Assembly: GCA_964291295.2 (NCBI GenBank)
Contig: OZ219754.1
Span: 2,592,001 to 2,656,000 of the forward strand
Source: an uncultured Candidatus Binatia bacterium
Lineage (GTDB): Bacteria > Desulfobacterota > Binatia > UBA9968 > JAJDTQ01
Direction: 5' to 3'
DNA length: 64,000 nt
The translations under genes were made by a program, and so were the position numbers. A model generated the notes under the pieces. That model made no database searches and was not told the DNA's origin. It worked only from the letters and a program-made list of their open reading frames with translations. Within the stretch, counting starts at the first letter, position 1; every line of letters starts with the position of its first letter. Shown piece after piece: positions 39,101 to 48,816 of the stretch.

Positions 39101-39543
39101 CCCTCGACGTTACCCCTACACCGACAACCGCATTGGAAGGCACCCTCCACCCCTCCCTCATCCCGATACAACCCACAGCATGGGAAAGTCCTGGCATTGG
39201 ACAAGACTGTGGTTTGACATTTGTGGGGCAGAAGGTAAGATGGCCGACAGACAATCTGTTTGAAGGGGGCAACGAAGGTAAGCGGCGCTGCTGTGACCCG
39301 ACCGGTTTCGACGGAAGCGTTTTCGAGGGAAGCGTGATTGAACCGCCGCTGCCGAATGAGCCTCCGCGGACTGTCCGGTGCGTCCTCGAGGCGTCCGCGG
39401 ATGGTCCATTTCAATACCCGGCCGTGTACGCTGTGGCCATGCCCTGTCCATCTTCCCGAACTTCACCCCGAACCCTCTCTTCCCCGAGCGGTGCCGCCCC
39501 GACCGTCGTGAAGCATGGGTTTTGCCGAGGCATGTGATCTCCG

Positions 39544-41301
39544 TTGCTTTCTGAACCTTCCTCCCGTCCGGATCCGCAGCCCCGCGCGGTCCTTGCCCGG
39601 TATCGCGGCGCATTGATCGTGGTGGGTCTGCTGAGCGCCGCGGTGAATCTCCTGCTGCTCACCGGGCCACTTTTCATGCTGCAGGTCTACGACCGGGTGC
39701 TGGCCAGCCGGGCGGAGGCGACGCTGGTCGTGCTGTTTGCCATCGTGGTCTACCTCTACGGATTGAAGGGCCTGCTTGATGCCCTGCGCGGGCGCATCCT
39801 GGGGCGGGTCGGGGCGGGATTCCAGAGTGCGCTCGACGAGCGGGTATTCGATGCATCGCTCCGGGCGGAGCGCGAGCGCCCGGGGCAGGCGCTTCAGGAG
39901 CTTGAGATGGTGCGTATGTTCCTGGCCTCCCCGGCGCCGGGGATGATCCTGGATCTGCCCTGGATGCCGTTCTTCGTCGCCATCATCTTCATCTTCCATC
40001 CACTGCTGGGGTGGCTGGCCGTGGCGGGTGCGCTGGTGCTGGTGGCGCTGGCGCTGGTCAACCGGTGGGCGACGCGCAAGTCGCAGCAGCAGGCCGCCCA
40101 GCTGTCCGTGGACGCGAACCTCCGCGCCGTGGAGGCGCACCGCGAGATGGAGACGGTGCGGAGCCTGGGCATGACCGGCCCGTTGCGCGCGCGTTGGAAG
40201 GCGGTGCGCGAGACAGCGATGGACTGGGGGATGCAGGCCTCGGACGTCGGCGGTGGCTACACGGCGGCGAGCCGGGCGTTCCGTCTGCTGCTGCAGTCGG
40301 GGATGCTGGGGCTCGGCGCGTGGCTGGTGCTGGAGGGCGAATTGACGGCGGGGGCGATGATCGCGGCCTCGATCCTGCTCGGTCGGGCAATGCAGCCGCT
40401 GGAGGGGGTGATTTCGCAATGGCCGATGATCCAGCGGGCGCGGGCGGGCTGGTCCTCGGTCTCGCGGCTGCTGGCGCAAGCGCCGCCGACGGTGCCGTCG
40501 ATGGCGCTGCCGCGGCCTGCATCGCATCTGCTGGCGAGCAATGTGACGGTGTTGTCGCCGGACCGTCGGGATGTGCTGCTGCGCGGCGTGAGCTTCGATG
40601 TGGTGCCGGGTGAGGCGGTGGCGGTGGTGGGTGCGAGCGGCGCGGGCAAGTCGACGCTGGCAAAGGCGCTCGTCGGACTGTGGCCGCTCGCGCAGGGCGA
40701 GGTGCGTCTGGGCGGGGCGGAACTTTTGGCTTGGGGGGAGGCGCTGTGGCGCGAGCATCTGGGTTATCTGCCGCAGGACGTGGCGCTCTTCACCGGCAGC
40801 GTGGCGGAGAACATTGCGCGCTTCGACCCCGAAGCCAACGAGGATGGGGTGGTCCGGGCGGCGATGGCGGCCGGGGCGCATGAGATGATCCTGTCGCTGC
40901 CCGACGCCTACGACACGGTGCTCAAGAACGGCAGCGGAGTTTCGGGCGGGCAGCGCCAGCGCATCGGCCTTGCGCGGGCGCTCTACGGCAATCCGGTGCT
41001 GTTGGTGCTGGACGAGCCGGACGCGAGCCTGGACGACGTCGGCGCGCAGGCGCTGAACCGGGCCATCGCCGAGGCGAAGAAGGCCGGGAAGGCGGTGGTG
41101 GTCATGGCGCACCGGAGTTCGGTGCTTGCGGAATGTGAGCGGATCGCGGTGCTGGAGGGCGGGCGGCTGCGGATATTCGGACCAAGTTCGAAGGTGCTGG
41201 CACGCCTTTCGGGTGCCCGGCCGCGACTGGCCGCGGAGGGAGGGCGCAGGGCAATCGCGACGGGTGCCGCGGCCCCGGAAGCGCCGTCGGACGATGACTG
41301 A
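39544..41301 (+). CDS. Type I secretion ABC permease/ATPase (PrtD/AprD family)
   Basis: Motifs MLQVYDRVL, DLPW, GAMIAASIL.GRA, Walker A GASGAGKS, SGGQRQRIGLARA and LDEP. Confidence 0.95.
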   Translation: MLSEPSSRPDPQPRAVLARYRGALIVVGLLSAAVNLLLLTGPLFMLQVYDRVLASRAEATLVVLFAIVVYLYGLKGLLDALRGRILGRVGAGFQSALDERVFDASLRAERERPGQALQELEMVRMFLASPAPGMILDLPWMPFFVAIIFIFHPLLGWLAVAGALVLVALALVNRWATRKSQQQAAQLSVDANLRAVEAHREMETVRSLGMTGPLRARWKAVRETAMDWGMQASDVGGGYTAASRAFRLLLQSGMLGLGAWLVLEGELTAGAMIAASILLGRAMQPLEGVISQWPMIQRARAGWSSVSRLLAQAPPTVPSMALPRPASHLLASNVTVLSPDRRDVLLRGVSFDVVPGEAVAVVGASGAGKSTLAKALVGLWPLAQGEVRLGGAELLAWGEALWREHLGYLPQDVALFTGSVAENIARFDPEANEDGVVRAAMAAGAHEMILSLPDAYDTVLKNGSGVSGGQRQRIGLARALYGNPVLLVLDEPDASLDDVGAQALNRAIAEAKKAGKAVVVMAHRSSVLAECERIAVLEGGRLRIFGPSSKVLARLSGARPRLAAEGGRRAIATGAAAPEAPSDDD

Positions 41302-42595
41302 GCCCAAGCGCAAGACCTGGTCGGTGGGCGGTCCGATGCGGCTGGGCCTGCTGCTGCTCGTGGTGGGGTTCGTCGGCGTGCTGGCCTGGGCCTCGGCGGT
41401 GCAGATCCACGGCGCGGTGATCGCGCCGGGAAGTGTCGAGGTGGAATCACGGCGCCAGGCCGTCCAGCATCCCGACGGCGGGATCGTGGCGGCGCTTCCG
41501 GTGCGCGAAGGCGCGCGCGTCGAGGCGGGGGCGGCCATCCTGGAACTCGACGCCACCGACTTGGCCTCCGAAAAGGCGCTTCTGATGCGGCAGTTGCAGG
41601 AAGTGCGGGCACGTATCGACCGTCTCTCGGCCGAGGCCCGGGCCAGTGAAAAGGTCGTGTTCCGAGATGCGGCCGCGGCGGTGAACGACCCGGTGCTCGC
41701 GACGCTGCTGGCTGACGAGCGGACCCTGTTCGAGACCGGCCGCGAGTCGCTGCTGCAGACCGTCAAGCAGATCAGCCAGCGCAAGGCCTCCACCGTGGCC
41801 TTCATCGAAGGGCTGCGGCTGCAGCTGGAGGCGGCCCGGGATCAGCAGGCTCTGGTCGGTTTGGAAGCCCGCGCCAAGGAGAAACTGCTGGAGAGGGATC
41901 TGATCCCCAAGCCGGAGGTTTGGCGACTGCTCCGGGACGAGGCTGAGTTCAAGGGCGCCCTCGGCAAGCTGAATGCCGAGGTTGCACAGGGCCGGAGCAT
42001 GATCGCCTCCTACGAAATCGAACGGCTGCGCATCCTGGCGGAGCGGCGCGAAAAGGCCCAGGGCGAGTTGCGCGAGCTGCAGCCGCGCGAGGCCGAGCTT
42101 GCCGAGCGTCTCCGGGTGGTGGAGACTCGCCTGTCGCGGCTCGTGCTGCGCGCGCCGATGGCGGGGGTGGTGCACGGGCTCAGGGTGTTCACCGTGGGCG
42201 GGGTGATCCCGGCGGGTGCGGAGGTGGCGACGATCGTGCCCGAAGGGGTGCCGCTGGTGCCCAGGGTACGGGTTGATGCGAGTCAGATCGATGAAGTTCG
42301 GGCCGGGCAGGACGTGACCGTGCGGTTCCCGGCGTTCAACTCCCGCACCACACCGGAGTTTACCGGGCAGGTGCGCACCGTGTCGGCCGACGCGCTGGTG
42401 GACGAGGCCAGCGGCGTCCGCTACTACACTGCGGAGATTACGTTGAGCGGAGAATCGGAAGCGGAGGTCCGCGCGCGCGGCATCGTACCCGGCATGCCGG
42501 TCGAGGCGTTTATCCGCACGCGCGCCCGCACACCGCTCGCCTTCCTGCTCAATCCCTTCACCGACTATATTCGCCACGCCTTCCGCGAGGAGTGA
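41294..42595 (+). CDS. HlyD family type I secretion periplasmic adaptor
   Basis: Motifs GAVIAPG, VQHPDGG, a long coiled coil, RAP..G.V and PGMPVEAFI. Confidence 0.95.
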   Translation: MTEPKRKTWSVGGPMRLGLLLLVVGFVGVLAWASAVQIHGAVIAPGSVEVESRRQAVQHPDGGIVAALPVREGARVEAGAAILELDATDLASEKALLMRQLQEVRARIDRLSAEARASEKVVFRDAAAAVNDPVLATLLADERTLFETGRESLLQTVKQISQRKASTVAFIEGLRLQLEAARDQQALVGLEARAKEKLLERDLIPKPEVWRLLRDEAEFKGALGKLNAEVAQGRSMIASYEIERLRILAERREKAQGELRELQPREAELAERLRVVETRLSRLVLRAPMAGVVHGLRVFTVGGVIPAGAEVATIVPEGVPLVPRVRVDASQIDEVRAGQDVTVRFPAFNSRTTPEFTGQVRTVSADALVDEASGVRYYTAEITLSGESEAEVRARGIVPGMPVEAFIRTRARTPLAFLLNPFTDYIRHAFREE

Positions 42596-43047
42596 GAAGC
42601 CCTGCGGGAATCAGTACGGGTAGTCAAGGTGCAGGTGACGCCGGTTCCGGGCAGGCCGCAGCACACCACCCGCACCGGACCACTGCCCTGACTGGCTTGC
42701 GGTCCATTCGAGGAGCGTTGCGAGATCGCCCTGAAGGGGCTGGCCCATATCGACCAACCATATCCATCGGTCGGCCGGGAGCGGCGTCGCGTTGCGAGAA
42801 GCCCGCGAATTCCTCGTCCGTCAGCCCGGCGCGCCAGCCGACAGCGGTTGGCAGCGCGCCCATCCCTCCGGCAGAACCGTTTGTTCCGCGCTCTTGGGCG
42901 ACCGGGGGTGTGCGCTGTGGAGCGGCCGAAACGCGCTGCTCCCCTCAGGCAGTCCGACCGTCCTGACGCCGCTGTTTTGGCCGCGGCCGGTGACTTTGGC
43001 TATCCTTCCGCGGCATGCCCGTCTTTTCCCGACGTCGATTCGCCGTC

Positions 43048-43791
43048 ATGCACCTCGAAACCCTGCTGATCATCTTCGTGGCCCTGGCCGCCGGAGCGTT
43101 CTCGAAAGGGGCCACCGGCATGGGTCTTCCGCTCATTGCCGTACCCATCATGGCGGGTTTCCTGGGCGCACAGCAGACGGTCATCGTCATCACGGTCCCC
43201 AATCTGGTAAGCAACTTCTGGATCATCTGGTCCTACCGGTCCAGGTTCCACACCGTGCCGAGACTCGTCTCCTCCACCTTGGCGGGCGCCTTGGGGGTGG
43301 CCGCCGGCACCTGGTTCCTGGCGACATCCGACGAGCGCCTGCTCACCCTGGTGCTGGCGGTTTGCGTAGGCTCCTATCTGGTTCTTCTGGCTTTCAGGAT
43401 CGACCTGCGCTTCTCCGGCCGGCCCGGCCGCATGCTCTCCCTCCTCCTTGCCGCCGCGGCCGGTGTATCCCAAGGGGCCACCGGCATGTCCAGCGCGGTG
43501 GTGGTGGCGTGGGCACGGGCGTTCGGCCTGGAGAAGGAAGGGCTCATCCTCGCGGCGTCGACCCTGTTCCTGGGTCTCACCACGACGCACTTTCTTTTTG
43601 TGCTGGCCGCAGGGCTGTTCGACCGGCAGCTTCTCGGCCAAGCATTCCTTGCGGTGGTTCCCATCGCGGCGTTCCTGCCCCTGGGCATGCGCGTGACCCC
43701 CTACATCAGCAGGCATTGGTTCAACCGGATCATCGTGACCCTGATCGTGGTGATGGAGGTCAGGCTGATCTGGCGGGGGGTCATGGAGTAG
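43048..43791 (+). CDS. Sulfite exporter TauE/SafE family membrane protein
   Basis: KGATGMG.PLIAVP and about eight TM segments. Confidence 0.88.
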   Translation: MHLETLLIIFVALAAGAFSKGATGMGLPLIAVPIMAGFLGAQQTVIVITVPNLVSNFWIIWSYRSRFHTVPRLVSSTLAGALGVAAGTWFLATSDERLLTLVLAVCVGSYLVLLAFRIDLRFSGRPGRMLSLLLAAAAGVSQGATGMSSAVVVAWARAFGLEKEGLILAASTLFLGLTTTHFLFVLAAGLFDRQLLGQAFLAVVPIAAFLPLGMRVTPYISRHWFNRIIVTLIVVMEVRLIWRGVME

Positions 43792-43890
43792 CATGAGGCA
43801 GGAACGCGCCGGCCTCCTTGCGGGTGTGCGGTTCGCACCGGAGTTGCCGGGGTTCCGAGCCGGGCATGCTGTTCCGAGCCACAGGTTTTG

Positions 43891-43917
43891 CCGGTCCCGC
43901 GAAAGCGGGAAGCCGGA
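43891..43917. terminator. Hairpin between tauE and the original argC 3' end
   Basis: CCCGC-GAAA-GCGGG stem-loop at 43896-43909. Confidence 0.4.
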
Positions 43918-44149
43918 AGCGGCTCGGGGTCAGCCGGGCAGGTGAGCGGTCTCGGGGAGAGGATTATATACGATAGTGCCGGGATCGCCTGTCAGGATGG
44001 GCGGTCCTTCCACTTGATGTTGACGGGATTCAGCACGGCGCGCGCCAAGTTCTTCGGGGGCGGCTTCGAGCCGTCCATTTTCCGAATGTCGATTTCTTCC
44101 TTCATGTCCGCCTTGCTCGGCTGGCAGGACGAGCGAACCCGGATGACGG

Positions 44150-44610
44150 AGCGAGGCCGTGCGACCGAATTTTGCGGTTGGCCATTCCATGATCTCCCGT
44201 TGATCGGCTTCGATGCCCGACGCACTTGCGCTTTCAGCGAGATTCGGCCCGGAGGCTCCTGCACGATGTTCTTTGCACCTTGATTGCAGATTGCAGATAC
44301 TGCACGAGGCGCGCAGGTTATCGACGCTATCACTCCCGCCTTGGGCCTTGTCCACGATGTGGCCGACATGAAGGCGCGCGGGACGCCCGGACCGATCATC
44401 GGGGTCGCCTGCCGCGATACCGCACATTCTGCAAGTGTATCCGTTTCGCTTACGAACCTCTGCCAGCGTCCTGGAACTGATATTCCGGGCAAACTGCATC
44501 GGCGGTTTTGACGGCGGCCATGTCACAAGCCGGTACTCCCCGGCTTGAGGTCGGCAGAATCGTCGTGCGACTGGATCGGCCAGCCTTCTTCATCGCGCAG
44601 TTCCCGCAAG
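44150..44610 (-). pseudogene. HNH endonuclease, frameshifted and truncated
   Basis: Fragments across frames read RELRDEEGWPIQSH, RNGYTCRMCG...LHVGHIVDKAQGGSDSVDNLRASCSICN and QGAKN. A 7-bp duplication near 44283-44296 breaks the frame. Confidence 0.8.
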
Positions 44611-45180
44611 CGGCGGCGGCAGTGCATTGTCGATCTGGCGGCACTGTTGCGTCTTGCCACCGTAGAACGCCCAGTCATCGGGGAAGCTCTGTATGCGGGC
44701 GACCATGCGTGCCATGAGCCTGAGAACGCCGTCGAATCCTGGGGAGAGGGGGATTCGCCATGCCGAGGCCGTCAACGCCAAGCGCCGCCCAAGCCTCGCG
44801 CGCGCGAGGGATCGAGATCAGAGCCGCCATGCTTCTTTGGCCCGCCAACAATGGTCGGGGCCACCCTGTTGGCGCGCGCGGCCCATGCCGCCGCACCCTG
44901 CCAGCCGTTGGCCGCCGTCAAATCGCCCAGCGTCTCACCGCGCGTCCAAGGTCGGGAACGGCCACTCCAGCGCGCCGGTAGTGCCTTCCCGAAGCGCGAT
45001 CAGGAACACACGGGAGCGCGTTTGCGGTGTGCCGAAGTCGGCAGCGTTGAGCGTCGCCCAGCAAGACGTGAAGCCCATTGTCTGCAAAGCCGAGTCAACT
45101 CGCGCCCGCACACCGTCGAACTTGGCGTGAAGCAGGCCGCGCGCATTCTCGACCAGCACGGCGCGCGGGCTGTTCTGCGC
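44590..45180 (-). pseudogene. C5 DNA cytosine methyltransferase fragment (M.NgoMIV/M.NaeI-like)
   Basis: Motifs VEN.RG, LNAADFG.PQ.R.RVF, APTIVGG.KKHGG.DL, AWAALGVDG and ARIQSFPDDW.F...RQI.NA.PP are spread over several frames. The N-terminus is missing. Confidence 0.85.
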
Positions 45181-45448
45181 ACTTGATGCCGACCGGGCCA
45201 GCCACTACTGGCGCACGCCCGAGGCGGGCGGCACGGTGGACAAGGACAAGCCGCCCCCGGTCGGCCGGGCCCTGATCTTCTCCGCCTGCGGCAATACCTG
45301 CCGCAGGCGGAGCGGGCGGGCCGGCAAGCCGGTGCCGCTGGTCGCCGAGGCCCGGAAGGCGGCGTCTGCCTGATGGAGTTGCAGGAACAGGGCTGGACTA
45401 CATCCGGCCATGGCACCCGCCGCCGGAGCTCCCGGCCGCACCAAGGCA

Positions 45449-46501
45449 CTAGACAAATATGAAATCGCCTTCGGTGAGCGAGTCCGCCGCTACATCCAGC
45501 AGCGTCACCGTGTCGCCGGCGCCGCCGTAGGCGACCACGGCGTTGCCGTCGTCGTTGTCCGCGATCGTCAGCCCGCTGAAATCGTGGCCGACCTCGATCA
45601 GGCGGATCGTGTCGCCGTCCCCGAAGTCGCGGACCGTATCGGCGCCGTCGCCCTTGCGAAAGGCGAAGGTGTCGTCGCCCTTGCCGCCGCGCAGCGTATC
45701 GGCGCCGGTGCCGCCATAAAGGGTGTCGTCGCCCTTGCCGCCGCCCAGCATGTCGTCGCCGACACCACCGAACAGGACATCGTCGCCCTTCTTGCCCCAG
45801 AGAGTGTCGTCGCCGTCCTCGCCATACAGCAGGTCGTCTTCGCCGTGGCCCCTGATGGTGTCGTCGCCGGCGCCGCCGTAGATCGTGTCGCGGCCGAAGG
45901 CGCCGTGGAGCGTATTGTCGCCGTCGCCGCCGCGGATGGTGAAGCCGATGCCGGAGGCCTTGAATTCGGCCAGACTCCACCCGTCGAGCTGGACGGTGCC
46001 GCCGCCGTCGCCGCTGGCCCTGTCAAGGTCATACCAGGAGATGGGAGAACTCAGGTAGTCGGCGAAATAGCTGTGAATGGTGCCGTCGTCCGTCCCGCCG
46101 TCGCCGTAGACGATGACGACATAGCCGTCGCGTCCGAGGAAATGGCCGTCGCGTTCGACGATCCGGAAGCGGCCGACCTTCGCGTCGCCAAAGATGAACT
46201 CGATCGTGTCGCGCGCCTCCAGGTCGTGGATGAGGTCGAAGCCGTCGCCGAGGCGGAAGACGAAGGTGTCGTGGCCCTGGTAGAAGTGGCCGCTTCTCTT
46301 CCAGTCGCCCTGGAGCCAGTCGTTGCCCTTGCCGCCGTCGAGAGTGTCGTCCTGACTGCCGCCTACCAACATGTCGGGGCCGCCCCGGCCGTAGAGCTTG
46401 TCCCTGCCCCCGGTGCCGCCATAGAGAAAGTCTGCGCCTTCGGTGCCGTGGAGCGTATTGTCGATCCAGGATCCGATGATTCTTTTATAACCCACCGTCA
46501 T
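45449..46501 (-). CDS. RTX calcium-binding repeat protein
   Basis: Many GGxGxD nonapeptides, GDGADTVRDF, and a C-terminal T1SS-type signal ..LTEGDFIFV. Confidence 0.9.
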   Translation of the reverse strand: MTVGYKRIIGSWIDNTLHGTEGADFLYGGTGGRDKLYGRGGPDMLVGGSQDDTLDGGKGNDWLQGDWKRSGHFYQGHDTFVFRLGDGFDLIHDLEARDTIEFIFGDAKVGRFRIVERDGHFLGRDGYVVIVYGDGGTDDGTIHSYFADYLSSPISWYDLDRASGDGGGTVQLDGWSLAEFKASGIGFTIRGGDGDNTLHGAFGRDTIYGGAGDDTIRGHGEDDLLYGEDGDDTLWGKKGDDVLFGGVGDDMLGGGKGDDTLYGGTGADTLRGGKGDDTFAFRKGDGADTVRDFGDGDTIRLIEVGHDFSGLTIADNDDGNAVVAYGGAGDTVTLLDVAADSLTEGDFIFV

Positions 46502-46990
46502 TCCTCCGTTGGAACAGGCCGCCTCGGCCGCTGCCGCGGGCGGCCATGGTATGGGAGCCGTCCTCCCCCAGGTATCGAAATGGCATGGACGGTGTCGTCG
46601 TCCGTGCCGCCGTCGCCGTAGATGATGACTCCATAGTCGTCGCGCTTGATGAACCGGAAGCGGCCGACGTCCTCGTCGCCCCAGATGAACTCGATGGTGT
46701 CGTGCATCTCCAGACCGGAAATGTAGTCTTGGCCGTCGCCGCGGCGGAAGATGCAGGTGTCGGCGTCCTCGCTGCCCCTGAGCCAGTCGTTGCCCTTGCC
46801 GCTGTCAAGAGTATCTTTGCCCCCATCGCCGTCCAGAAGGTCATGGCCGTCCTCGCCTGACAGCATGTCGTCGCCCCCTGTTGCCAACGAGCCAGTCCTT
46901 GCTTCCGCCGCCGTAGATACGGCCGTGTCCAGTCAGGCCATTGAGATAGTCGTGGCCGTCCTCGCCATGCATTGCGTCGTTCCACCAAGG
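46498..46990 (-). pseudogene. Second RTX repeat gene, frameshifted and truncated
   Basis: GEDGHD and GKGND repeats. There is an extra base in the C-run at 46874-46878. It shares the DTIEFI.GD..VGRFR...YGDGGTDD module with its neighbour. Confidence 0.75.
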
Positions 46991-46999
46991 TCCGCGCCG

Positions 47000-47595
47000 T
47001 CCCTTGAAATCGGTCTTTGCCGCCTCCCGCAAAGATCTCGGTTCAGGTCTCGGTTTGCACGTCACGGTGGATTATACCGGAACGCCGGCGCCCTGCAAGG
47101 GCCGGCAACGCAGCCTTCCGCTTGGAGCGCGGCAGATTCTTCCGCTTCCTGCCGATGCAGGTTCGAGCACCTCGACCGGCCCGGCAAAGGACGCATCCTC
47201 ACACTTCCACGATTCCCGAATGCCATGCGCCAGATGCTACGCCGCCTTCTGCGTGATCTTCGGATCGCGGTGCCGCTTCATGCTGCTGAGGCCCTTCCGG
47301 TTCGCCGCCAACAGGTAGAAGGTGATGGCCCAGACCTGGTATCCGAGATTCGACGCCTGCATGGCCGCGCCGGTGCGAACGCTGAACCGCTTGCCGATCC
47401 CCTTTCGCGGCATCGGTGCGTCATGGTCTTGTGCGTGATCGGGTGCTGGACATTCACCGAACCGCAGTGCGCGCCGTCCGGCCAGCGCCGCTTGATGAAC
47501 CATGCTTCGGCGGTCGCATCGTCCGGGAACCGGCGCATGGTCGCGATAGGCGGGATTACCTGCCTTCGATGCTTGCCCGGTGCGTTGTGTGCCAT
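47000..47595 (-). pseudogene. IS1595-family transposase, N-terminal remnant
   Basis: Fragments across frames and stops read MAHNAPGK..FPDDATAEAWF...RWPDG, KRFSVRTG..M..SNL, KGLSSMK.HRD..ITQKAA and FAGPVEV. Confidence 0.88.
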
Positions 47596-47666
47596 TCCTC
47601 TATCTTCTTGCTTGCAAAAGAAAATACAGGAAGAGGCCGGGGGAAGGGGGCAGTGTCGATTCGGCG

Positions 47667-48620
47667 CTATCGTATATGACTCCCCTCGGGAAGGCCGAGC
47701 ATGAGGTTCAGGTTCTGGATGGCGACGCCGCTGGCGCCCTTGCCGAGGTTGTCGAGGAGTGCCACCAGCAAGGTGTGTCCCGAGGGGTGGGGAAGCACGT
47801 GAAGCTCCACGCGGTTGGTGTCGTTGCACGCCCGCGGGTCGAGGCTGCGCTCATGGGCCGCGCGCGGGTCCGGATGGGGCACCACCCGCACGAAGGGCTC
47901 GCCCGCATAGCGGTCCCGCAGGCACTCCAGGATGGCCGAGCTGGTGCCGCCCGCGGGCAGCAGACCCAGGGGAATCGGCACCTCCACCCGCATGCCGCAG
48001 CGGAAGGGTCCCACCGCCGGCACGAACTGCGGCTCCAGAGTGAGTCTGCCGTAAGCCATCATCTCGGGGATGTGCTTGTGGCGCGCTCCCAGAGCATAGG
48101 GGGCTTCGTAGGGCAATGAGCCCAGCCCGCGCTCCGGGCTCTCCCATTTCTCGATCAGTCCGCGCCCACCGCCGGAATAGCCCGACAGCGCATGAATGGA
48201 CACCGGGGTGTCCTGAGGCAGGAGCCCGGCGTCCACCAGCGGTCGGGTCAACAGGATGACGGCCGAGGGATAACAGCCGGGGTTGGCCACGAATCGGGCT
48301 TCGCGGATGGCGTCCCGCTGCCCGGCATCCAGTTCCGGCAGCCCGTAGGTCCACCCATGGGCGACCCGGTGGGCGGTGCTGGCGTCGATGACCCGGGTGC
48401 CCTCCGCAGCGGCCCATCGGGCAGCCTCCGGCGCCGCGTCGTCCGGCAGGCACAGCACGGTCACGTCCGCCGCCGCGATGGCGTCATGGCGCGCCGCGCC
48501 GTCCTTGCGCCGCCCTTCGTCCAGCGTGGACAGATCGATATCCTGGCGTCCCGCGAGCCAGTCGCGTATGCGCAGCCCGGTGGTGCCCGCATGGCCGTCT
48601 ATGTAGATTCTGGGCGGCAC
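47667..48620 (-). CDS. argC: N-acetyl-gamma-glutamyl-phosphate reductase (type 2)
   Basis: Motifs IDGHAGTTGL, DASTAHR, ANPGCY, SGYSGGG and LDNLGKGASG. The last five residues come from the IS end. Confidence 0.95.
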   Translation of the reverse strand: MPPRIYIDGHAGTTGLRIRDWLAGRQDIDLSTLDEGRRKDGAARHDAIAAADVTVLCLPDDAAPEAARWAAAEGTRVIDASTAHRVAHGWTYGLPELDAGQRDAIREARFVANPGCYPSAVILLTRPLVDAGLLPQDTPVSIHALSGYSGGGRGLIEKWESPERGLGSLPYEAPYALGARHKHIPEMMAYGRLTLEPQFVPAVGPFRCGMRVEVPIPLGLLPAGGTSSAILECLRDRYAGEPFVRVVPHPDPRAAHERSLDPRACNDTNRVELHVLPHPSGHTLLVALLDNLGKGASGVAIQNLNLMLGLPEGSHIR

Positions 48621-48816
48621 GGAATCGTCCGGACCCCGCCGCGGTGCGCGGCAGGGGCAGAGAGATGAACCTGCCGGAACAACTTATCAGAAAACCCCAC
48701 CTGTTGACATGCGGCTTTACGACGCCGCGGGGAATTGCTAGTTCTTGCTTCCAGTTCGCCGCCTGCGCGCGCATGGCGACGGCGGGGCCAGTTCAGCGAC
48801 CGCCAAGGAGGAAAGA

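What the first reader, a model, noticed from the sequence alone, without database searches (positions are those of the whole stretch)
43930..47692. IS1595-derived cargo element inserted in the last codons of argC, supplying it with a new C-terminus
Seen: 23-bp imperfect IRs (43959-43981 and 47662-47684) are flanked by CTCGGGGA (43951-43958) and CTCGGGAA (47685-47692). The single mismatch falls at a Leu wobble position. argC now ends ..MLGLPE-GSHIR*, with GSHIR* encoded by the IR. The displaced original tail ..LPE-TAHLPG* survives 3.7 kb away at 43930-43958. Inside, all on one strand, are a transposase N-terminal remnant, two RTX genes, and methylase and HNH fragments. Established: IS1595-family elements make ~8-bp duplications, and some carry passenger genes. 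Inference: a non-autonomous transporter IS that delivered secreted RTX and R-M cargo while keeping argC functional.
Basis: partly seen in the sequence, partly recalled or inferred. Interest (0 to 1): 0.78.

Follow-up and report, generated by a model that had tools for sequence, protein, structure and literature searches.

The report
Decayed IS1595 cargo element inside argC
A 3.7-kb mobile element of the IS1595 family landed in the last six codons of the arginine-synthesis gene argC and gave it a new five-residue ending; it is now a largely dead relic, and this is an ordinary, well-understood kind of event.

Summary
It is flanked by CTCGGGGA and CTCGGGAA (7/8). argC ends ...LPEGSHIR*, with its stop codon inside the repeat.

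All 11 closest relatives end argC in E[TA][AS]HLP[DKNG]*. All 11 have a convergent tauE 0.1-0.85 kb downstream, and none has the insert. Removing the element plus one repeat copy in silico gives a 318-aa ArgC ending LPETAHLPG*.

The element belongs to the IS1595 family. Its transposase remnant matches residues 1 to about 170 of 315-316-aa IS1595 transposases. It has a frameshift, an in-frame stop and a damaged zinc ribbon, and the catalytic half is missing.

The "cargo" is mostly wreckage:
- a 5'-truncated m5C methylase;
- an HNH nuclease lacking its start and carrying three frame switches;
- a truncated RTX copy.

Only the 350-aa RTX gene is intact.

The RTX block sits where the transposase catalytic half and the methylase N-terminus should be. 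I therefore read it as a secondary replacement, not proven IS cargo. No second copy of the unit was found. This is a new member of a known kind, of low interest.

The parts
47667..48620 (-). argC (N-acetyl-gamma-glutamyl-phosphate reductase), 317 aa. The last 5 codons and the TAG stop (47667-47684) are encoded by the element's inverted repeat.
   Evidence: ORF. Pfam Semialdhyde_dhC_1 E 3e-27. 78-85% identical to ArgC of 11 relatives, which are 318 aa and end E[TA][AS]HLP[DKNG]*.
47685..47692 (.). Target-site duplication, copy next to the argC body (CTCGGGAA; on the minus strand TTCCCGAG, encoding ..L P E).
47662..47684 (-). Left inverted repeat (transposase-proximal). Read outward-in on the minus strand it is GGGAGTCATATACGATAGCGCCG and encodes G S H I R stop for argC.
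   Evidence: Its end resembles the end of an IS1595-family element on a plasmid (L082).
47084..47595 (-). IS1595-family transposase pseudogene. It covers residues 1-68 (47595-47401) and 68 to about 170 (47404-47084) of 315-316-aa relatives. Lesions: a 3-residue gap that removes one Cys of the first zinc-ribbon Cys pair, a frameshift near 47401-47404, an in-frame stop near 47239, and loss of the conserved D-E-T. The C-terminal (DDE) half is absent.
   Evidence: The Pfam zinc-ribbon hit is weak.
46579..46996 (-). Truncated, frameshifted RTX copy. It matches residues 4 to about 146 of the ~350-aa family, with a frame switch near 46875, and lacks the C-terminal ~200 residues. The 129-aa ORF (46498-46887) and the 74-aa ORF (46841-47065) are pieces of it.
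45449..46501 (-). Intact RTX calcium-binding repeat protein, 350 aa, ending ..GDTVTLLDVAADSLTEGDFIFV*. It is a candidate type I secretion substrate.
   Evidence: Pfam HemolysinCabind E 2.8e-39, 7 stretches. Relatives of 334-359 aa at 50-66% identity cover 96-100% of it. Six relatives printed share the family C-terminus. GC3 is 0.87, like host genes.
45169..45448 (.). Unassigned 280 bp between the RTX gene and the methylase remnant.
   Evidence: No Pfam hit at E<=1 for stop-free stretches of three minus-strand frames across 45003-45480. No tblastn hit with a full methylase.
44551..45168 (-). m5C DNA methyltransferase pseudogene. Only the equivalent of residues 106-316 of a 318-aa relative remains. 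It has two in-frame stops and a scrambled target-recognition region. The N-terminal ~105 residues are missing.
44161..44615 (-). HNH endonuclease pseudogene. It matches residues 39-188 of 189-198-aa relatives with three frame switches. One coincides with a 7-bp tandem duplication at 44282-44295. The first 38 residues are missing.
43982..44160 (.). Unassigned spacer between the HNH remnant and the right repeat.
   Evidence: No similarity.
43959..43981 (+). Right inverted repeat, GAGGATTATATACGATAGTGCCG.
43930..43958 (-). Displaced original 3' end of argC (..P E T A H L P G stop). Positions 43951-43958 are the second copy of the target-site duplication (CTCGGGGA).
43015..43791 (+). tauE/safE-family gene, convergent to argC and its native downstream neighbour.
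   Evidence: Pfam TauE E 2e-20. 75-81% identical and convergent next to argC in 11 of 11 closest relatives.
39538..42595 (+). Type I secretion genes outside the element: a PrtD-type ABC permease/ATPase (39538-41301) and a HlyD-family adaptor (41126-42595). They are a possible exporter for the RTX protein.
   Evidence: NCBIfam TIGR01842 631 bits and TIGR01843 327 bits. The HlyD query gave no tblastn hit and the ABC query none above 40% identity in the 80 relatives' loci.

Best explanation
An IS1595-family element transposed into argC after codon 312 of 318 and duplicated 8 bp (T[T/C]CCCGAG on the coding strand). It was most likely a transporter IS of the layout repeat - transposase - m5C methylase - HNH nuclease - repeat.

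The transposase-proximal repeat happens to read G-S-H-I-R-stop in the argC frame. ArgC therefore lost six residues (TAHLPG) and gained five. The original last codons and stop were pushed 3.7 kb away, next to tauE.

argC is followed only by a convergent gene, so the site was harmless and the insertion persisted.

The element has since decayed and cannot move by itself:
- the transposase is frameshifted, has an in-frame stop and has lost its catalytic half;
- the methylase lacks its N-terminal third;
- the HNH gene lacks its start and has three frame switches.

A ~1.9-kb block lies exactly where the transposase 3' half and the methylase 5' part should be. It holds one truncated and one intact RTX gene, so I infer that it replaced them in a secondary event.

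Shown: the insertion, its family, the empty site, the new and old argC ends, and the state of each gene.

Inferred: the original layout, the order of events, that ArgC still works, and that the intact RTX protein is made (possibly by read-through from argC) and exported by the neighbouring PrtD/HlyD system.
For: Ends and target duplication.

Empty site:
- 11 of 11 closest relatives (78-85% ArgC identity) end in E[TA][AS]HLP[DKNG]*.
- All 11 carry convergent tauE 0.1-0.85 kb downstream.
- 0 of 80 fetched loci have tblastn hits to the transposase remnant, HNH, either RTX ORF or HlyD.
- 0 of 80 contain ATATACGATAG.
- In-silico excision gives a 318-aa ArgC ending LPETAHLPG*, 250-271 of 318 identical to four relatives.

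Family:
- 16 longer relatives of the transposase piece were found. 13 of 16 carry both PF12760 and PF12762, at 300-393 aa.
- Mapped back, they cover window 47595-47084 at E 5e-56 to 7e-58 for P0001 and P0003 (5e-37 for P0010), and nothing else in the window.
- An IS1595-family element on a Pseudosulfitobacter plasmid has 24-nt repeats starting GGCGATTGTATAC. That is 10/13 identical to GAGGATTATATAC here. It is 1869 bp long and holds an extra small ORF.
- Transporter ISs are described for the IS1595 and IS66 families (passage in bioRxiv 10.1101/2021.05.26.445724).
- R-M genes inside imperfect inverted repeats with 8-bp duplications, one with an inactivated transposase, are described in PMC2853133 (passages).

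R-M layout: a methylase followed directly by an HNH gene occurs on Acidithiobacillus plasmid pGT2.

Decay.

RTX350 is intact and a full-length family member.

The ArgC tail is variable among 80 homologues, and one ends at NLMLGL* with no tail.
Against: - No second copy of the element, or of any transposase + methylase + HNH unit, was seen, so the proposed original layout is a reconstruction.
- The 16 transposase relatives and the 22 HNH relatives share no contig length. This is a weak sign that the two genes do not usually travel together.
- The target duplication is 7/8, not 8/8.
- The Pfam zinc-ribbon hit of the window's own fragment is below the curated cut-off (17.5 versus 25.4 bits).
- RTX350 has host-like GC3 (0.87). 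That fits a local origin of the RTX block but does not show when it entered.
- Nothing tests ArgC activity, RTX expression or secretion.
Confidence: 0.8

Rival explanations
1. The whole 3.7-kb unit, RTX genes included, was already in its present non-autonomous form when it inserted. It would have been mobilised in trans by an intact IS1595 transposase. This is the first reader's 'non-autonomous transporter IS that delivered RTX and R-M cargo'.
For: - Both repeats and the target duplication bracket the whole unit.
- Transporter ISs and non-autonomous derivatives are known for this family.
- Intact relatives of the transposase exist in other genomes.
Against: - The RTX350 cluster has 1 member on 1 contig, and its next relative is 66% identical, so no second copy of the unit is known.
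- None of the 16 transposase relatives lies on a contig of 3,648,015 bp, the contig length listed for the window's own RTX350 cluster.
- The RTX block interrupts both the transposase and the methylase. This is more simply explained by damage after arrival.
- RTX350 has host-like GC3, unlike the HNH remnant (0.87 versus 0.57).
Confidence: 0.15
2. A plain IS1595 copy (transposase only) inserted first. All other genes, the R-M pair as well as the RTX block, entered or were recombined in later, so none of it is IS cargo.
For: - Transposase relatives and HNH relatives share no contig length (0 of 22 HNH hits).
- The R-M remnants have lower GC3 than the transposase piece.
Against: - The R-M remnants lie between the transposase and the right repeat, on the same strand. 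That is the layout described for transporter ISs.
- IR-bounded R-M units with 8-bp duplications and a dead transposase are documented.
- Two independent later entries into a 1-kb IS are less economical than one.
Confidence: 0.1
3. The repeats and direct repeats are chance matches, and the region is a recombination scar or assembly chimera rather than a transposition.
For: The window appears to come from a single contig that may be a metagenome assembly. The closest relatives are metagenome-assembled genomes.
Against: - Excision at the repeat ends restores argC to the residue.
- The repeat core is far beyond chance.
- An IS1595 transposase remnant starts 87 nt inside one repeat.
- A chimera would not duplicate exactly 8 bp of argC.
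Confidence: 0.02

Closest known systems
Transporter ISs (tIS) of the IS1595 family (Siguier, Gagnevin & Chandler 2009; cited in PMC3129680, defined in bioRxiv 10.1101/2021.05.26.445724)
   Same: - Imperfect terminal inverted repeats.
- An 8-bp target duplication.
- An N-terminal IS1595 zinc-ribbon transposase at one end, with unrelated genes between it and the far repeat, all within about 3.7 kb.
- From memory, not checked here: the ISNwi1 subgroup has ends like ggnnatTAT and passenger-carrying forms of 1.75-4.75 kb. That would fit GAGGATTAT.
   Different: - The transposase has lost its catalytic half.
- The passenger genes are pseudogenes, except one RTX gene.
- No second copy is known.
- Subgroup placement could not be tested: ISfinder is not available and the 2009 paper is not held.
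Transposon-like restriction-modification units bounded by inverted repeats with 8-bp duplications (Furuta, Abe & Kobayashi 2010, PMC2853133; passages read)
   Same: - R-M genes inside imperfect inverted repeats.
- An 8-bp duplication matching an empty site in a relative.
- In their Neisseria case, a truncated R-M gene and a probably inactivated transposase.
   Different: - Here the R-M pair is m5C methylase + HNH and both genes are dead.
- An RTX block is also present.
- The insertion lies inside a gene's last codons.
m5C methylase + HNH endonuclease gene pair, e.g. on Acidithiobacillus ferriphilus plasmid pGT2 (NZ_CP080537.1)
   Same: Same gene order and orientation. The methylase remnant is 39% identical and the HNH remnant 41% identical.
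   Different: The pGT2 genes are intact (318 and 201 aa). The window's copies lack their starts and carry stops and frameshifts.
Small RTX calcium-binding proteins exported by PrtD/HlyD-type type I secretion systems
   Same: - Nonapeptide repeats.
- A family-conserved C-terminus ending in an acidic residue plus hydrophobic residues. From memory, this resembles the C-terminal motif of protease-type substrates.
- A PrtD-type ABC gene and a HlyD gene lie 2.9 kb away.
   Different: - The gene is separated from the secretion genes by tauE and by the element's end.
- No enzymatic or pore-forming domain was detected.
- Secretion is untested.

Membership tests
IS1595 family insertion sequence | Transposase with the N-terminal IS1595 zinc-ribbon domain (PF12760) | tested here: met
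   The window fragment alone scores below the Pfam cut-off (E 0.004, 17.5 versus 25.4 bits). However, it is 71-72% identical over residues 1-68 to 315-316-aa proteins that carry PF12760 + PF12762. One Cys of the first Cys pair is deleted, so the domain is present but damaged.
IS1595 family insertion sequence | DDE catalytic domain (PF12762, DDE_Tnp_IS1595) | tested here: not met
   Similarity to full-length relatives stops at about residue 170 of 316. Nothing else in the 64-kb window matches at a meaningful E-value. This copy is a derivative, not an autonomous member.
IS1595 family insertion sequence | Terminal inverted repeats and an 8-bp direct target duplication | tested here: met
   Repeats match 18/23 (core 15/16) and the duplication matches 7/8. 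The empty site is confirmed in 11 of 11 relatives and by in-silico excision.
IS1595 family insertion sequence | Ends resembling those of other family members or of a named subgroup | tested here: inconclusive
   The two ends match the end of one plasmid IS1595-family element (L082) at 10/13 and 8/13. The closest plasmid transposases are only 37-38% identical. ISfinder is not available, and the ISNwi1 end consensus is recalled only.
Transporter IS (tIS) | Passenger genes unrelated to transposition inside the IS repeats, beside the transposase | tested here: met
   Methylase and HNH remnants and RTX genes lie between the transposase remnant and the right repeat.
Transporter IS (tIS) | The unit moves as a whole, i.e. 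the same repeats and cargo occur at another site or in another genome | tested here: inconclusive
   No other copy in the window or in the 80 relatives' loci. The RTX350 cluster has 1 member on 1 contig. The whole genome and metagenomes could not be searched.
Non-autonomous element mobilised in trans | A cognate intact transposase in the same genome | not testable with these tools
   Only 64 kb of the genome is available. As a weak negative, none of the 16 transposase relatives has a longest contig of 3,648,015 bp, the value listed for the window's own RTX protein.
Type II restriction-modification system (m5C methylase + HNH nuclease) | Complete methylase, including the N-terminal region that holds the cofactor-binding and catalytic motifs (motif placement recalled), and an uninterrupted nuclease ORF | tested here: not met
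   The methylase keeps only the equivalent of residues 106-316 and has two stops. No N-terminal signal was found in 45003-45480. The HNH gene lacks 38 N-terminal residues and has three frame switches.
Type I secretion substrate (RTX protein) | Nonapeptide calcium-binding repeats | tested here: met
   PF00353 E 2.8e-39 in 7 stretches for the 350-aa protein.
Type I secretion substrate (RTX protein) | Functional C-terminal secretion signal and a cognate ABC/adaptor pair | tested here: inconclusive
   The C-terminus ..SLTEGDFIFV* is of the form shared by the six relatives printed. A PrtD-type ABC gene and a HlyD gene lie at 39538-42595. There is no test of secretion. The signal motif is recalled from the literature, not checked.

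The most novel reading that the evidence does not exclude
The element is more than a harmless relic. Its intact RTX gene, co-oriented with argC, has no terminator-like site between argC's new stop and its own start. It could be transcribed by read-through from argC and exported by the PrtD/HlyD system 2.9 kb away. An IS1595 shell would then have wired a secreted protein to an arginine-biosynthesis promoter next to its exporter.

A bolder variant concerns the IS end itself. It encodes a near-native ArgC tail: GSHI versus TAHL, with His identical and Ser/Ala and Ile/Leu similar. That would let it sit in gene ends without cost.
Probability: 0.08. Interest if true: 0.5.

Novelty: new member of a known kind. 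Interest (0 to 1): 0.22.

Why it matters
It is a clean, fully resolved example of how an insertion sequence can sit inside the end of an essential-pathway gene without destroying it. The IS end supplies the missing codons and the stop.

It also shows how such an element then decays into a shell that still shelters one working gene.

For annotation it carries two warnings:
- the 198-aa 'HNH' ORF and the 129-aa 'RTX' ORF are artefacts of pseudogenes;
- ArgC here has a non-native C-terminus.

It does not open a new biological question.

Tried and rejected
- DNA search of the HNH end of the element (43930-44678) against plasmids: no match.
- 40-nt left repeat against plasmids at E<=10: two 23-24-nt matches at E 2 and 6. 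I treated these as chance.
- Transposase relative P0001 against plasmids: 388 records, all below 60% identity and the best 37-38%. This was too distant to define the ends of this IS. One of the two records I opened (Methylocystis, L081) showed no convincing terminal repeats.
- Using contig lengths as fingerprints to see whether close transposase relatives and close HNH relatives share contigs: no overlap, 0 of 22 against the 16. This is weak evidence either way.
- ESM Atlas for RTX350: only generic RTX clusters and no usable taxonomy.
- PDB sequence search with ArgC: 13 reductase structures. The two alignments printed end at query residue 314, so they say nothing about the importance of the tail.
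- Rfam and tRNA scans of the window: two tRNAs at 21.8 and 29.0 kb and nothing near the element.
- Promoter/terminator scan of 42500-48800: 0 promoter-like sites and 1 terminator-like site, fewer than in shuffles.
- My first idea that the HNH gene continues in the 166-aa frame to 43992, just inside the repeat, was rejected. Relatives show the gene ends near 44161.
- Papers: the FEMS review on ISs was not held under either id tried. 'ISNwi1' occurs in only 2 unrelated held papers. The 2009 IS1595 paper was seen only as a reference.
The repeats and the transposase could therefore not be looked for in other genomes.

Full report
**1. The observation**

- A repeat core ATATACGATAGYGCCG occurs exactly twice in the window, in inverted orientation, at 43966-43981 and 47662-47677.
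- With up to three mismatches there are four matches against 0.30 expected, and no shuffle of 100 reaches four. The repeat finder reports the pair as 16 nt and 94% complementary.
- The repeats are flanked by CTCGGGGA (43951-43958) and CTCGGGAA (47685-47692). The chance of 7/8 or better at one fixed place is about 4e-4.
- argC (47667-48620, minus strand) ends ..MLGLPEGSHIR*, and the TAG stop lies inside the repeat.
- The stretch 43930-43958 reads ..PETAHLPG* on the minus strand.

**2. The empty site**

My one scan of genome contigs went to ArgC. It matched 599 stretches, of which 545 were confirmed, and the best 80 were kept. The 11 best are metagenome-assembled genomes, mostly labelled Candidatus Binatia, with 78-85% identity. 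No record is identical to the window.
- All 11 end ArgC in E[TA][AS]HLP[DKNG]*. Ten of the 11 read LPE before it and one reads LAE. The length is 318 aa where the match begins at residue 1.
- All 11 have a tauE gene (75-81% identical to 43015-43791) convergent to argC. By tblastn coordinates its end lies roughly 0.1-0.85 kb beyond the argC stop. In the window the displaced stop is 138 bp from tauE.
- None of the 80 loci gives a tblastn hit (E <= 1e-3) to the transposase remnant, the HNH ORF, either RTX ORF or HlyD. None contains ATATACGATAG.
- Removing 43959-47684 plus one copy of the 8-bp repeat in a script gives a 318-aa ArgC ending GLPETAHLPG*. It is 250-271 of 318 identical to four relatives.
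- The single mismatch between the two 8-bp copies is the third base of the Leu codon (CTT versus CTC). Both codons occur in relatives.

**3. What inserted**

The 88-aa ORF at 47240-47503 found 16 longer proteins. Thirteen of the 16 carry both the IS1595 zinc ribbon (PF12760) and the IS1595 DDE domain (PF12762), at 300-393 aa.

Mapped back by tblastn, these proteins cover residues 1-68 at 47595-47401 (71-72% identity) and residues 68 to about 170 at 47404-47084 (51-64%), in two frames. They match nothing else in the window at a meaningful E-value.

The remnant carries several lesions:
- a three-residue gap that removes one Cys of the first Cys pair;
- a frameshift near 47401-47404;
- a stop where relatives have Trp;
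- L-E-P where relatives have D-E-T. That this Asp is catalytic is my recollection, not a test.

The catalytic half is gone.

In plasmids the nearest transposases are only 37-38% identical. One of them, on a Pseudosulfitobacter plasmid, sits in a 1869-bp element with 24-nt repeats that start GGCGATTGTATAC. It also holds an extra small ORF. The window's ends GAGGATTATATAC and GGGAGTCATATAC match that start at 10/13 and 8/13.

From memory, ISfinder gives the ISNwi1 subgroup ends like ggnnatTAT, 8-bp duplications and passenger-carrying forms. I could not check this. The term occurs in two unrelated held papers only, and the review I wanted is not held.

Two passages I did read support the general picture:
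- R-M genes inside imperfect inverted repeats with 8-bp duplications, one with a probably inactivated transposase, have been described (PMC2853133).

**4. The contents, read on the minus strand from the transposase end**

(a) Transposase pseudogene, 47595-47084.

(b) A truncated RTX copy, about 46996-46579. It matches residues 4-43 in one frame and 43-146 in another of ~350-aa relatives, and nothing beyond that. The 74-aa and 129-aa ORFs are pieces of it.

(c) An intact 350-aa RTX protein, 45449-46501.
- Pfam gives E 2.8e-39 in 7 stretches.
- Eight relatives of 334-359 aa at 50-66% identity cover 96-100% of it.
- The six relatives printed share a C-terminus of the form ..TLL[DNG]V..[AE]SL[TS]..D[FC][IL]F[VIAS]*.
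- Its own cluster has one member on one contig.
- Its GC3 is 0.87, within the 0.79-0.86 to 0.90 range of the host genes I measured.

(d) 280 bp without any similarity.

(e) An m5C methylase remnant. It is equivalent to residues 106-316 of the 318-aa methylase of plasmid pGT2, has two in-frame stops, and shows no trace of the N-terminal 105 residues.

(f) An HNH nuclease remnant. Relatives are 157-211 aa, 22 found. Three of them map to residues 39-63, 64-147, 145-172 and 172-188 in alternating frames between 44615 and 44161.
- One switch coincides with a 7-bp tandem duplication at 44282-44295.
- The first 38 residues are missing.
- The 198-aa ORF that runs through the right repeat into the old argC tail is therefore a chance open frame.

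(g) About 180 bp of spacer, then the right repeat.

On pGT2 the methylase gene is followed directly by the HNH gene, so the two remnants are the ruins of a two-gene R-M module.

**5. How I read the history**

The repeats and the duplication show that whatever lay between the repeats at the time arrived in one transposition. Alternatively, a smaller IS arrived and was altered inside afterwards.

The methylase and HNH remnants lie where transporter-IS passengers lie. The RTX block lies where the transposase 3' half and the methylase 5' part are missing. I therefore favour this order:
1. A transposase-methylase-HNH transporter IS inserted.
2. It was later hit by a replacement that brought in the RTX block.
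3. Point decay followed.

The order is inferred. The alternative is that the already crippled unit was moved in trans. I cannot exclude that, but no second copy supports it.

One weak point against any regular transposase-HNH pairing is that the 16 transposase relatives and the 22 HNH relatives share no contig length.

**6. Consequences for argC**

- The ORF is otherwise intact and aligns end to end with relatives.
- Among the 80 homologues the stretch after ..NLMLG varies in sequence and length. Many end at ..GL*, one ends at NLMLGL*, and some run on for 20 or more residues.
- The new tail GSHIR keeps a His and two similar residues relative to TAHLP. That is why tblastn alignments ran to residue 316 of 317.
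- argC is divergent from the upstream flavin-reductase-like gene (the query labelled 'flav'; my label, not scanned against a family library) and is followed only by convergent tauE. No operon partner was cut off.

I conclude that the insertion was probably neutral. This is an inference, not a test.

**7. The RTX gene and the neighbouring secretion genes**

To the left of tauE lie a PrtD-type ABC gene (TIGR01842, 631 bits) and a HlyD-family adaptor gene (TIGR01843, 327 bits). The HlyD query gave no hit, and the ABC query none above 40% identity, in the 80 relatives' loci. Conserved gene order with the 11 close relatives stops at tauE.

The only RTX genes in the window are those inside the element. 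The simple scan finds no terminator-like site between argC's new stop and the RTX start.

Expression by read-through and export by the neighbouring system are possible but untested. The proximity may be coincidence.

**8. Verdict**

It is unproven on 'delivered cargo', and the R-M cargo is dead.

This is a new member of a known kind: an IS1595-family transporter-IS derivative, an IR-bounded R-M unit, and an IS end supplying a stop codon. Interest is low.

**9. What stayed unchecked**

- The rest of the genome.
- The metagenome and viral contig collections (closed).
- ISfinder.
- Names and contexts of the protein relatives (not available).
- The 2009 IS1595 paper.

Noticed in passing
window 39538-42595: A PrtD-type type I secretion ABC gene and a HlyD adaptor gene lie directly left of tauE. 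The HlyD query gave no hit, and the ABC query none above 40% identity, in the 80 relatives' loci. Conserved gene order with the 11 close relatives ends at tauE. The block may itself be a lineage-specific acquisition.
   Followed up: partly
window 44282-44295: A 7-bp tandem duplication (GATTGCA twice) coincides with one of the frame switches in the HNH pseudogene. It produces two overlapping frames that both read ..ICN...
   Followed up: yes
window 47667-47684: The IS-encoded ArgC tail GSHIR resembles the native TAHLP: His is identical, and Ser/Ala and Ile/Leu are similar. This is probably chance. Only this one reading frame of the repeat meets an early stop.
   Followed up: partly
L082 1402-3270 (Pseudosulfitobacter pseudonitzschiae plasmid NZ_CP087043.1): An IS1595-family element of 1869 bp with 24-nt repeats (96% complementary), a 322-aa transposase and about 800 bp of extra DNA holding a small annotated ORF. 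It is flanked by A-runs. It looks like a small transporter IS, and matching hits occur in many plasmids of that species.
   Followed up: partly
protein P0027 (not in the window): A 517-aa RTX paralogue, 40% identical to RTX350, is listed with the same longest-contig length (3,648,015 bp) as the window's own protein. The genome therefore probably holds at least one more RTX gene elsewhere.
   Followed up: no
L001-L011: Downstream of argC several relatives carry short GC-rich repeated motifs in the argC-tauE spacer, for example repeated GGGGTGACG(T)GGTGGAGG units in L003. The spacer length varies about sevenfold.
   Followed up: no
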